Shown piece after piece: positions 23,001 through 26,000 of a DNA stretch of 64,000 nt. Origin of the DNA: Escherichia coli (GTDB lineage Bacteria; Pseudomonadota; Gammaproteobacteria; Enterobacterales; Enterobacteriaceae); the NCBI RefSeq assembly GCF_003334355.1, contig NZ_QOWP01000001.1; one strand, 5' to 3'. The position numbers were made by a program. Position 1 is the stretch's first letter; each line of letters begins with the position of its first letter.

Positions 23001-26000
23001 TGTAAGTACGCAGCATCTTGCTGGCTTCCTGGGAGCTCATTGCAACCTCCTGCATGGAGCGTAGTACACCGTGTTCGCCCGCTGACGAAGGCAAACCCAT
23101 AGACATGTCGTCAGACATAGCGAACCTCAAATTATTTTATTAAGTGTAAAACAGTTAACGACTATCGCAGCCTGGAACTGCGATAACAACCCATAAGCAC
23201 ATGGATTTTCCAGCAGTGTATGCTGACGCTCCGACTGCGCAACCGGTTTCTTTTTCATAACATTATTAAGCACATAACCGAACGTAAGTGTGACAGTTCG
23301 GCGAAACCACGAGAAAACTCTTGTTTTTACAAGAGCGCCCTTGTTCAGTCCTCAGTAACTGTAACCAGCTCTTGAATCCTGAGAAGCGCCGAGATGGGTA
23401 TAACATCGGCAGGTATGCAAAGCAGAGATGCAGAGTGCGGGGAACGAATCTTCACCAGAACGGTGAGACAGGTTAAGCAGCAGACAACGGTTCATTATTT
23501 CGTATCACCTCCACGGCCGCCTGTTAAGACGAACCCACAAGCCAAAACTCTGATTTCAACCCGGCTGGAAGTGGCAACACGAAAAAAACGTCGTGTGCTT
23601 TTTATTTAAGCCGCGCGCCGCGTTTTATACCCCACAATGGCAGAAAATTGCAAAAGATAAATACGCAGAATGCCGGCATTGTCAGGAAAAATTTCCAGCC
23701 ACGTTTTTAACAGAATGAGACACGATTCAAAAAAAAGTGGAAATCGGGTGAAGAATTGACCTAAAATAGCCATCCAGATGTTAATCCATCCATACCGATT
23801 AACACTCAGACTGCCAGTGTTTTTAACCTGCAGAGTCGTGGTAGGATCCGCTACCACAGAAAATCCACACAACAGTTTGAGCTAACCAAATTCTCTTTAG
23901 GTGATATTAAATATGGCAAAACACCTTTTTACGTCCGAGTCCGTCTCTGAAGGGCATCCTGACAAAATTGCTGACCAAATCTCTGATGCCGTTTTAGACG
24001 CGATCCTCGAACAGGATCCGAAAGCACGCGTTGCTTGCGAAACCTACGTAAAAACCGGCATGGTTTTAGTTGGCGGCGAAATCACCACTAGCGCCTGGGT
24101 AGACATCGAAGAGATCACCCGTAACACCGTTCGCGAAATTGGCTATGTACATTCCGACATGGGCTTTGACGCTAACTCCTGTGCGGTTCTGAGTGCTATC
24201 GGCAAACAGTCTCCTGACATCAACCAGGGCGTTGACCGTGCCGATCCGCTGGAACAGGGCGCGGGTGACCAGGGTCTGATGTTTGGCTACGCAACTAATG
24301 AAACCGACGTGCTGATGCCAGCACCTATCACCTATGCACACCGTCTGGTACAGCGTCAGGCTGAAGTGCGTAAAAACGGTACTCTGCCGTGGCTGCGCCC
24401 GGACGCGAAAAGCCAGGTGACTTTCCAGTATGACGACGGCAAAATCGTTGGTATTGATGCTGTCGTGCTTTCCACTCAGCACTCTGAAGAGATCGACCAG
24501 AAATCGCTGCAAGAAGCGGTAATGGAAGAGATCATCAAGCCGATTCTGCCCGCTGAATGGCTGACTTCTGCCACCAAATTCTTCATCAACCCGACCGGTC
24601 GTTTTGTTATCGGTGGCCCGATGGGTGACTGCGGTCTGACTGGTCGTAAAATTATCGTTGATACCTACGGCGGCATGGCACGTCACGGTGGCGGAGCATT
24701 CTCTGGTAAAGATCCATCAAAAGTGGACCGTTCCGCAGCCTACGCAGCACGTTATGTCGCGAAAAACATCGTTGCTGCTGGCCTGGCCGATCGTTGTGAA
24801 ATTCAGGTTTCCTACGCAATCGGCGTGGCTGAACCGACCTCCATCATGGTAGAAACTTTCGGTACTGAGAAAGTGCCTTCTGAACAACTGACTCTGCTGG
24901 TACGTGAGTTCTTCGACCTGCGCCCATACGGTCTGATTCAGATGCTGGATCTGCTGCACCCGATCTACAAAGAAACCGCAGCATACGGTCACTTTGGTCG
25001 TGAACATTTCCCGTGGGAAAAAACCGACAAAGCGCAGCTGCTGCGCGATGCTGCCGGTCTGAAGTAATCTTTCTTCACCTGCTTTCAAAGGCCAGCCTCG
25101 CGCTGGCCTTTTTCTTTTACCTCACCGCGGTGGATAGGCATTCACGCCGCATCCGGCAAAAAGCTGCCCGCACAATAACATCATTCTTCCTCAACACGTT
25201 TTATCGCAAATTATCATCACTACTGAAACCGATTACACCAATAACACCAGCCAAATATTTGTAATATTTTCATATTATTATTCAGTTTTCACAGTTGTTA
25301 CATTTCTTTTCAGTAAAGTCTTAATTGCAGATAACAGCGTTTAATCTATGATGATATAACTCAATTATTTTCATGCACTTAAACCATAACTAAGATAAAT
25401 GTTAGTGTAAGCGATTACACTGATGTGATTTGCTTCACATCTTTTTACGTCGTACTCACCTATCTTAATTCACAATAAAAAATAACCATATTGGAGGGCA
25501 TCATGCCTGACGCTAAAAAACAGGGGCGGTCAAACAAGGCAATGACGTTTTTCGTCTGCTTCCTTGCCGCTCTGGCGGGATTACTCTTTGGCCTGGATAT
25601 CGGTGTAATTGCTGGCGCACTGCCGTTTATTGCAGATGAATTCCAGATTACTTCGCACACGCAAGAATGGGTCGTAAGCTCCATGATGTTCGGTGCGGCA
25701 GTCGGTGCGGTGGGCAGCGGCTGGCTCTCCTTTAAACTCGGGCGCAAAAAGAGCCTGATGATCGGCGCAATTTTGTTTGTTGCCGGTTCGCTGTTCTCTG
25801 CGGCTGCGCCAAACGTTGAAGTACTGATTCTTTCCCGCGTTCTACTGGGGCTGGCGGTGGGTGTGGCCTCTTATACCGCACCGCTGTACCTCTCTGAAAT
25901 TGCGCCGGAAAAAATTCGTGGCAGTATGATCTCGATGTATCAGTTGATGATCACTATCGGGATCCTCGGTGCTTATCTTTCTGATACAGCCTTCAGCTAC

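What the first reader, a model, noticed from the sequence alone, without database searches (positions are those of the whole stretch)
25404..25439. Adjacent GalR-type operator and perfect CRP site upstream of galP
gtgtaagcgattacac (GalR/GalS operator consensus) is followed 3 bp later by tgtgatttgcttcaca (perfect TGTGA-N6-TCACA) about 65-100 bp upstream of the galP start, within a very AT-rich 400-bp leader. Coordinates are hand-read and may be off by 1-2 nt.
Basis: partly seen in the sequence, partly recalled or inferred. Interest (0 to 1): 0.25.

Follow-up and report, generated by a model that had tools for sequence, protein, structure and literature searches.

The report
Known GalR–CRP control region of galP
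The two motifs are real and are the already described binding sites for the galactose repressor (GalR/GalS) and the cAMP receptor protein (CRP) at the E. coli galactose-transporter (galP) promoter, so the finding is correct but ordinary.

Summary
GTGTAAGCGATTACAC lies at 25405-25420, one base later than stated. A 3-bp gap follows, then TGTGATTTGCTTCACA at 25424-25439. The galP ATG is at 25503. Each motif is the only perfect match to its consensus in the 64-kb window, and the combined pattern never appears in shuffles.

The window is the E. coli metK-galP region. The GalR site is a published galP operator with the strongest GalR ChIP-chip signal in the genome. The CRP site is listed in a CRP ChIP-seq table. 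A published NagC operator lies at 25464-25486, and a second published GalR operator at 25223-25238.

The layout is operator, 3 bp, CRP site, 21 nt, then a likely -10 element (TATCTT, 25461-25466). E. coli galE P1 has the same layout. That predicts a transcription start near 25473, with CRP at -41.5 and GalR at -60.5.

The cassette is invariant in divergent E. coli alleles. It is conserved, with fixed spacing, upstream of galP across Enterobacterales. The helper operator sits about 182 bp upstream in 35 of 37 loci.

Two caveats. I could not read a paper that maps the main transcription start. One low-coverage dataset reports a 5' end at -144, upstream of both sites.

Verdict: already known, low interest.

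The parts
25087..25111 (+). metK intrinsic terminator (10-bp stem, 6 G-C pairs, T-run). It marks the upstream edge of the intergenic region.
   Evidence: Terminator scan. The metK reading frame ends at 25067.
25223..25238 (.). Upstream (helper) GalR/GalS operator CTGAAACCGATTACAC, called 'OE (galP)' in the literature. Its centre is about -242.5 from the inferred start.
   Evidence: One mismatch to the consensus. It scores 15 bits with the GalR matrix, and 20 of 20000 shuffles of the intergenic region reach 15.15 bits, so p is about 0.001. Published as MG1655 3088004-3088019 (PMC5110547). Found 181-184 bp from the proximal operator in 35 of 37 loci.
25325..25359 (+). Possible weak upstream promoter: TTGCAG (25325-25330), 16 nt, TATGAT (25347-25352), with a reported 5' end at 25359 (-144 from the ATG).
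   Evidence: Mendoza-Vargas 2009, Table S1: 454 sequencing, frequency 2, marked 'New'. Hexamers read. Not verified independently.
25405..25420 (.). Proximal GalR/GalS operator GTGTAAGCGATTACAC, called 'OI (galP)' in the literature. Its centre is about -60.5 from the inferred start.
   Evidence: Published operator with the top GalR ChIP-chip peak. Invariant in 8 divergent E. coli alleles. Consensus positions kept across Enterobacterales.
25424..25439 (.). CRP site TGTGATTTGCTTCACA. Its centre is about -41.5 from the inferred start (class II position).
   Evidence: Listed for galP in the CRP ChIP-seq table. Centre-to-centre distance to the operator is 19 bp in 39 of 39 pattern hits next to galP and in 9 of 10 orthologues chosen without regard to the motif.
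25461..25466 (+). Inferred -10 hexamer TATCTT of the CRP-dependent galP promoter. The transcription start is inferred at 25473 +/- 1.
   Evidence: Inference. The hexamer lies 21 nt after the CRP 16-mer, exactly as TATGGT does at galE P1. T1, A2 and T6 are invariant in 40 aligned sequences. The start site was not confirmed from a paper I could read.
25464..25486 (.). NagC operator cttaattcacaataaaaaataac, overlapping the -10 element and the inferred start.
   Evidence: The sequence is identical to the galP NagC site in the FITBAR paper (PMC3098098), which cites El Qaidi et al. 2009 for NagC repression of galP.
25493..25498 (+). Shine-Dalgarno sequence GGAGGG.
   Evidence: conserved as GGAGGG or GGAGAG.
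25503..26897 (+). galP coding sequence (galactose:H+ symporter, 464 aa).
   Evidence: ORF list. RefSeq annotation under 100%-identical DNA. Offset to MG1655 galP at 3088284.

Best explanation
This is the core of the E. coli galP promoter, where two signals are combined. cAMP-CRP binds TGTGATTTGCTTCACA, centred about 41.5 bp upstream of the start, and is required to activate RNA polymerase at a promoter that has a weak -10 element (TATCTT) and no usable -35 element. When galactose is absent, GalR (or GalS) binds the near-perfect operator centred 19 bp further upstream, at about -60.5, and blocks CRP-dependent activation. Repression is probably strengthened by cooperation with a second, weaker operator 182 bp upstream, through DNA looping or a higher-order complex. 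NagC, bound over the -10 element and the start site, adds further repression. galP is therefore expressed only when cAMP is high AND galactose is present.

Shown by published experiments that I matched to this sequence: GalR occupancy, CRP occupancy, CRP dependence, antagonism by GalR, and repression by NagC. Inferred here: the exact -10 element and start site, the class II geometry, and looping between the two operators.
For: Identity with published sites. The two GalR operators match Qian 2016 Table 1 with a single constant offset of +3062781 to MG1655 coordinates. The proximal one has the highest GalR ChIP-chip score in the genome, and galP is up-regulated in a galR deletion. The CRP 16-mer is the galP entry of the ETEC CRP ChIP-seq table. 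PgalP is inactive without cAMP-CRP and GalR inhibits CRP activation, giving AND logic. A galS deletion changes the cAMP response of galP. The NagC operator sequence is identical.

Statistics.

Geometry. The operator, 3-bp gap, CRP 16-mer, 21 nt and -10 hexamer are spaced exactly as at E. coli galE P1, where OE is at -60.5.

Conservation within E. coli. The 121-bp core is at least 99% identical in 5367 of 5426 genomes. The whole 461-bp intergenic region reaches that level in only 1710. Both sites are invariant in 8 divergent alleles.

Conservation across genera. A scan of 100,044 species genomes for the perfect combined pattern, allowing gaps of 0-10 bp, found 41 loci. Of these, 39 lie upstream of galP orthologues in about 17 enterobacterial genera. 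All 39 have the 3-bp gap and the same orientation, and none has an indel between the operator and the -10 element. The gap and the CRP spacer diverge as fast as the flanking DNA.

In 10 orthologues chosen by protein similarity only, all have operator-like and CRP-like sites. The start-to-start spacing is 19 bp in 9 of them and 18 bp in one.

The helper operator lies 181-184 bp upstream in 35 of 37 loci.
Against: I could not read a paper that maps the main galP transcription start. El Qaidi 2009 and Semsey 2007 are not held. The -41.5 and -60.5 positions therefore rest on analogy with galE P1 and on the conserved TAnnnT hexamer.

The generic sigma-70 scan does not call this promoter. That is expected for a CRP-dependent promoter without a -35 element, but it means there is no independent support.

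One high-throughput dataset reports a 5' end at -144, upstream of both sites.

The 39 cross-genus pattern hits were selected for perfect motifs. Only their spacing, their orientation and the unconstrained positions carry information.

Looping between the two operators is inferred from conserved spacing, not shown.
Confidence: 0.93

Rival explanations
1. The CRP palindrome with its T-run acts, also or instead, as an intrinsic terminator or attenuator for transcripts that start upstream, for example at the reported -144 start or as read-through from metK. This would insulate galP or release a short RNA of about 85 nt.
For: The terminator scan flags 25422-25441 followed by TTTTT. As RNA the region folds into a 7-bp hairpin of -9.3 kcal/mol, z = -3.35. 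A 5' end is reported at 25359.
Against: The stem has only 3 G-C pairs and is simply what a perfect CRP palindrome with its A/T-rich consensus flanks must form. The stem extension and the T-run are lost in Erwinia, Tatumella and Nissabacter, while the CRP half-sites and the spacing stay. metK has its own strong terminator 330 bp upstream. The upstream 5' end rests on 2 reads. No Rfam family matches the region.
Confidence: 0.04
2. The main galP promoter lies upstream of both sites, so GalR and CRP bound there would act as roadblocks rather than as a repressor-activator pair at a class II promoter.
For: A 454-read 5' end at -144 with plausible TTGCAG-16-TATGAT hexamers.
Against: PgalP is reported as strictly CRP-activated, which does not fit a downstream roadblock. 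The spacing of operator, CRP site and -10 element is identical to galE P1 and fixed across genera. DNA just upstream of the proximal operator (25365-25404) is not conserved between genera, with mean identity 0.48; the hexamer region itself (25325-25352) was not compared between genera. Only 2 reads support the upstream end.
Confidence: 0.02
3. The two motifs are chance matches in AT-rich intergenic DNA and have no function.
For: The CRP matrix score of 16.5 bits is within the range of the best scores in 64-kb shuffles, whose top value was 18.2.
Against: The combined pattern is never seen in shuffles. Published in vivo occupancy exists for both proteins. The sites are strongly conserved with fixed spacing.
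Confidence: 0.01

Closest known systems
E. coli galP promoter region as described in the literature (Weickert & Adhya 1993; Semsey et al. 2007; El Qaidi et al. 2009; Qian et al. 2016)
   Same: It is the same locus. Both GalR operators, the CRP site and the NagC site are sequence-identical to the published ones. The window strain differs from K-12 only further upstream, by a 13-bp indel and several SNPs.
   Different: Nothing of substance differs. What this analysis adds is cross-genus spacing statistics and the explicit comparison of geometry with galE P1.
E. coli galETK promoter P1 (OE at -60.5, CRP at -41.5, repressosome with OI at +53.5 and HU)
   Same: The cassette is identical: a 16-bp GalR operator, a 3-bp gap, a 16-bp CRP core, 21 nt and a -10 hexamer. 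The same regulators act at both. Both use two operators.
   Different: At galP the second operator is 182 bp upstream, at about -242.5, not inside the gene at +53.5, so any loop does not enclose the promoter. The galP CRP site is a perfect palindrome, whereas galE has TTTAT/TCACA. galP has no overlapping P2 promoter that I could see. galP also has a NagC operator over the start site.
lac-type dual control (CRP activator plus LacI-family repressor with auxiliary operators)
   Same: AND-type integration of a cAMP signal and a sugar signal. A LacI/GalR-family repressor is helped by a distant auxiliary operator.
   Different: The lac CRP site is class I (-61.5) and the main operator overlaps the start site. 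Here CRP is class II and the repressor sits upstream of the activator.
Photobacterium aphoticum galETK upstream region (locus L041)
   Same: The same perfect GalR operator, 3-bp gap and CRP cassette, then 21 nt and TACACT, lie upstream of galE-galT-galK.
   Different: A different family (Vibrionaceae) and a different target operon. Function there is not tested. About 0.5 perfect matches at this spacing are expected by chance in the whole collection, so the gal context is what makes it credible.

Membership tests
GalR/GalS operator (gal regulon, LacI/GalR family) | 16-bp hyphenated dyad GTGNAANCGNTTNCAC, with the genetically critical positions intact | tested here: met
   Zero mismatches at 25405-25420. 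Scores 21.4 of 22.9 bits with a matrix built without the galP sites. Consensus and critical positions as stated in PMC5110547.
GalR/GalS operator (gal regulon, LacI/GalR family) | Occupied by GalR in vivo, and the target gene is derepressed without GalR | not testable with these tools
   Literature only. ChIP-chip score of 115.4 at galP, the highest in the genome, and galP up-regulated in a galR deletion (PMC5110547). I verified that the published sequence and coordinates map onto the window site.
GalR/GalS operator (gal regulon, LacI/GalR family) | Located in the control region of a galactose transport or metabolism gene, and conserved there | tested here: met
   Lies 83-98 bp upstream of galP. 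Kept upstream of galP orthologues across Enterobacterales.
CRP site, class II activation | TGTGA-N6-TCACA core | tested here: met
   Perfect match at 25424-25439. Scores 16.5 bits with a matrix of 105 ChIP-seq sites that excludes the galP site.
CRP site, class II activation | Centred at about -41.5 relative to the transcription start | tested here: inconclusive
   The start is inferred at 25473 +/- 1 from the conserved TAnnnT hexamer 21 nt downstream and from the identical spacing at galE P1. No mapped start for this promoter could be read. One dataset gives a different, upstream 5' end.
CRP site, class II activation | CRP bound in vivo and the promoter dependent on cAMP-CRP | not testable with these tools
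   Literature: a CRP ChIP-seq peak assigned to this 16-mer (PMC4287617), and PgalP inactive without cAMP-CRP (PMC4073488).
Gal repressosome-type two-operator loop | Two GalR operators at a constrained distance | tested here: met
   Operators are 182 bp apart centre to centre. The distance is 181-184 bp in 35 of 37 loci, although the conserved proximal flank examined is only about 48% identical between genera. It is 203-204 bp, about two helical turns more, in Erwinia and Pantoea.
Gal repressosome-type two-operator loop | Operators flank the promoter; HU binds at the loop apex; GalR dimers join as a tetramer | tested here: not met
   Both galP operators lie upstream of the inferred start, so the promoter is not enclosed as at galE, where the operators are at -60.5 and +53.5. 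HU binding and GalR tetramer formation cannot be tested here. The region may still loop, but it is not a copy of the galE repressosome.
Intrinsic (Rho-independent) terminator | Stable G+C-rich hairpin followed at once by a U-tract, conserved as a structure | tested here: inconclusive
   The hairpin is -9.3 kcal/mol with only 3 G-C pairs, followed by five U. The stem is identical to the CRP half-sites, so no covariation can be seen. The T-run is lost in Erwinia, Tatumella and Nissabacter.

The most novel reading that the evidence does not exclude
Two readings are not excluded.

First, the site may be one instance of a rigid, reusable 'gal cassette'. Its parts are a strong GalR operator, exactly 3 bp, a CRP site, exactly 21 nt and a -10 element, plus a deliberately sub-consensus helper operator (its first base is never G) held at about 182 bp. 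The cassette is conserved across Enterobacterales at galP. It is shared with E. coli galE P1, and it is present upstream of galETK in a Photobacterium. The fixed spacing and the conserved weakness of the helper operator may not have been described explicitly.

Second, the CRP palindrome with its U-tract may terminate transcripts from a weak upstream start at -144.
Probability: 0.1. Interest if true: 0.3.

Novelty: already known. Interest (0 to 1): 0.08.

Why it matters
It matters little as a discovery. The galP control region is a textbook-level example of two-signal (cAMP AND galactose) integration, and it has been dissected experimentally. The finding does serve as a positive control for the scan, since a reader without tools identified both sites and their target gene correctly. 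The cross-genus data show how rigidly the spacings between operator, CRP site, -10 element and helper operator are held, which is of modest use to people who model or re-engineer gal-regulon promoters.

Tried and rejected
1. A GalR matrix built from the 15-mers of the ChIP-chip table was symmetrised about the wrong centre and gave meaningless top hits (third block). I discarded it and used the 16-mer matrix.

2. The primary papers on the galP promoter (El Qaidi 2009; Semsey 2007; Krishna 2009; Horvath 2010) are not held.

3. Search for a mapped start site. The Kim 2012 supplements do not mention galP. No Conway 2014 supplements are held. Thomason 2015 is not held. Only Mendoza-Vargas 2009 has an entry, the -144 end.

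4. The generic sigma-70 scan found no + strand promoter in 25000-25560. This is uninformative for a CRP-dependent promoter.

5. An Rfam scan of 24900-25700 found only sub-threshold chance hits, so no known RNA element explains the region.

6. RefSeq annotation of MG1655 carries no regulatory features here.

7. The Pseudarthrobacter hit of the combined pattern (L015, 1-bp gap, no gal genes) was judged a chance match. About 5 such matches are expected over all the gaps allowed.

8. The 46-bp megablast missed 100 genomes. This is a word-size artefact; the 121-bp query found all 5426.

Full report
**1. What is in the sequence**

Reading 24800-25800 shows metK ending at 25067. Its terminator hairpin is at 25087-25111. 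Then comes an intergenic region of 435 bp, and the galP ATG is at 25503, preceded by GGAGGG. The translation ([17 protein letters not shown]...) and RefSeq annotation under 100%-identical DNA identify galP. All 5426 complete E. coli genomes carry the region between metK and galP.

GTGTAAGCGATTACAC is at 25405-25420, 'tga' at 25421-25423 and TGTGATTTGCTTCACA at 25424-25439. Its distances to the ATG (64-98 bp) are right.

GC content is 25-30% between about 25200 and 25450. The first 100 bp or so after metK are 53-55% GC.

**2. More than chance?**

Each motif is the only perfect match to its consensus in 64 kb. Shuffles give 0.00 expected matches for GalR and 0.03 for CRP. The 35-bp combined pattern is unique even with three mismatches allowed, against 0.00 expected.

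With weight matrices that exclude the galP sites:
- The operator scores 21.4 of a possible 22.9 bits. The best score in shuffles averaged 13.9 +/- 1.8.
- The CRP site scores 16.5 bits. It ranks second in the window, after the nupG CRP site. On its own it is only moderately above the shuffle maxima.

A second operator-like site, CTGAAACCGATTACAC at 25223-25238, scores about 15 bits. In shuffles of the 435-bp region, 20 of 20000 reach 15.15 bits, so p is about 0.001.

**3. Identity with published sites**

- GalR. Qian et al. 2016 (PMC5110547) list 'OE (galP)' CTGAAACCGATTACAC at MG1655 3088004-3088019 and 'OI (galP)' at 3088186-3088201. Both map onto the window with the same offset (+3062781) that maps the ATG onto galP at 3088284. 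Their GalR ChIP-chip score at galP is 115.4, the highest in the genome. galP is one of three promoters up-regulated in a galR deletion.
- CRP. Haycocks et al. 2015 (PMC4287617) list TGTGATTTGCTTCACA as the CRP ChIP-seq site of galP.
- Logic. Semsey 2014 (PMC4073488) states that PgalP is inactive without cAMP-CRP and that GalR binding inhibits CRP-mediated activation, giving AND logic. Kaplan et al. 2008 (PMC2516365) show that GalS shapes the cAMP response of galP.
- NagC. The NagC operator given for galP in the FITBAR paper (PMC3098098), cttaattcacaataaaaaataac, is window 25464-25486. Repression of galP by NagC is credited to El Qaidi et al. 2009.

**4. Promoter geometry (inferred)**

I fetched the E. 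coli galE promoter. It reads GTGTAAACGATTCCAC-TAA-TTTATTCCATGTCACA, then 21 nt, then TATGGT. Counting reproduces the published OE position of -60.5 and puts the CRP centre at -41.5.

galP reads GTGTAAGCGATTACAC-TGA-TGTGATTTGCTTCACA, then 21 nt, then TATCTT (25461-25466). The spacing is identical. By analogy the start is at 25473 +/- 1. That places CRP at -41.5 (class II), the proximal operator at -60.5, the upstream operator at -242.5, and NagC over the -10 element and +1.

**5. Conservation**

*Within E. coli.* The 461-bp intergenic query is at least 99% identical in only 1710 of 5426 genomes, and 1497 genomes fall in the 90-95% band. The 121-bp core (25385-25505) is at least 99% identical in 5367. 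Eight divergent alleles show all their variation upstream of about 25402, apart from one SNP in the NagC site. Both motifs are invariant.

*Across species, selected by pattern.* I scanned one genome for each of 100,044 species for the perfect combined pattern, allowing any gap from 0 to 10 bp. This gave 41 loci.
- 39 lie directly upstream of a galP orthologue (at least 90% amino-acid identity) in Escherichia, Salmonella, Citrobacter, Enterobacter, Lelliottia, Pluralibacter, Cedecea, Buttiauxella, Trabulsiella, Siccibacter and other genera.
- All 39 have exactly a 3-bp gap and the same orientation.
- In the alignment there is no indel between the operator and the -10 hexamer.
- Three of the four operator positions left free by the search pattern (4, 10 and 13) are invariant.
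- The gap (mean identity 0.48) and the CRP N6 spacer (0.52) drift like the flanking DNA (0.48).
- The -10 hexamer keeps T1, A2 and T6.

*Across species, selected by protein only.* Because the pattern scan selects for perfect motifs, I also took ten GalP orthologues chosen by protein similarity alone. All ten have an operator-like site (0-2 mismatches) followed by a CRP-like site (0-2 mismatches). Start-to-start spacing is 19 bp in nine of them: Salmonella, Cronobacter, Phytobacter, Atlantibacter, Erwinia, Pantoea, Tatumella, Nissabacter and one unnamed. It is 18 bp in Pectobacterium.

*Helper operator.* It lies 181-184 bp upstream in 35 of 37 loci, and at exactly 182 bp in 26. Its first base is never G. 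In Erwinia and Pantoea the distance is 203-204 bp, about two helical turns more. This fits phase-dependent cooperation between the operators but does not prove it.

**6. Alternative readings**

*Terminator.* The CRP palindrome plus its flanks folds into a 7-bp hairpin of -9.3 kcal/mol followed by five U, and the terminator scan flags it.

*Upstream start.* Mendoza-Vargas et al. 2009 (PMC2760140) list a 454-sequencing 5' end for galP at -144, which is window 25359. It rests on 2 reads. The hexamers are TTGCAG, 16 nt, TATGAT.

I do not regard either as displacing the accepted model, for these reasons:
- The 5' end has low coverage.
- The promoter is reported as strictly CRP-activated.
- The downstream cassette geometry is fixed across genera, while the DNA just upstream of the proximal operator (25365-25404) is not conserved between genera.
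- The T-run is lost in Erwiniaceae although the protein-binding half-sites remain.

A minor insulating or attenuating role cannot be excluded.

**7. Comparison with what is known, and verdict**

This is the known galP regulatory region, so it is not novel. It works like galE P1, with the same cassette and the same regulators. It differs in three ways: both operators lie upstream of the promoter, the CRP site is perfect, and a NagC operator lies over the start.

The perfect cassette also occurs upstream of galETK in Photobacterium aphoticum. This suggests the arrangement is an old, reusable module of gal regulons.

Interest is low.

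Noticed in passing
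window 25325-25359: A published 454-sequencing 5' end for galP lies at -144 from the ATG (window 25359; 2 reads). Plausible TTGCAG-16-TATGAT hexamers precede it. It is upstream of the proximal GalR operator and the CRP site. It may be a weak secondary promoter.
   Followed up: partly
window 25422-25446: The CRP palindrome and its flanks form a 7-bp hairpin (-9.3 kcal/mol, z = -3.35) followed by TTTTT, so the region looks like a terminator. The T-run is conserved in Enterobacteriaceae but not in Erwinia, Tatumella or Nissabacter.
   Followed up: partly
window 25223-25238 versus 25405-25420; loci L009-L049: The helper GalR operator is held at 181-184 bp from the proximal one in 35 of 37 enterobacterial loci (182 bp in 26). 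Its first base is never the consensus G. The exceptions are at 168 and 172 bp, and Erwinia and Pantoea have 203-204 bp.
   Followed up: yes
L062 (E. coli PSS-13), equivalent to window ~25473: An ISApl1 (IS30-like) element is inserted between the -10/NagC region and the galP coding sequence. This separates galP from its GalR/CRP cassette.
   Followed up: partly
L008 (E. coli PEC240), equivalent to window ~25218: An IS1 element is inserted in the metK-galP intergenic region about 5 bp upstream of the helper GalR operator. The operator itself is intact.
   Followed up: partly
window 25118-25130: A 13-bp stretch (TACCTCACCGCGG) just after the metK terminator is present in the window strain and most sampled alleles but absent from K-12 MG1655 and strain YY76-1. 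The upstream two-thirds of the intergenic region is unusually polymorphic within E. coli, while the promoter core is invariant.
   Followed up: partly
window 42770-42785 (also 42918-42933): TGTTATCCACATCACA is the reverse complement of the nupG CRP ChIP-seq site in the ETEC table. It is the top CRP matrix score in the window (17.1 bits). A second CRP-like site with one mismatch lies 148 bp downstream.
   Followed up: no
window 16752-16767 (also 16708-16723): TGTGATCTACAACACG equals the CRP ChIP-seq site listed for cmtB. A second CRP-like site lies 44 bp upstream of it.
   Followed up: no
L041 649-683 (Photobacterium aphoticum): A perfect GalR operator, 3-bp gap and CRP cassette, then 21 nt and TACACT, lie upstream of galE-galT-galK in a member of the Vibrionaceae. 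The geometry is the same as at E. coli galP and galE P1.
   Followed up: partly
L052 (Salmonella enterica Agona), protein P0002: This GalP entry is annotated as 557 aa instead of 464. The cause was not examined. The upstream cassette is perfect (GTGTAAACGATTACAC-CAT-TGTGATTAGCCTCACA).
   Followed up: no
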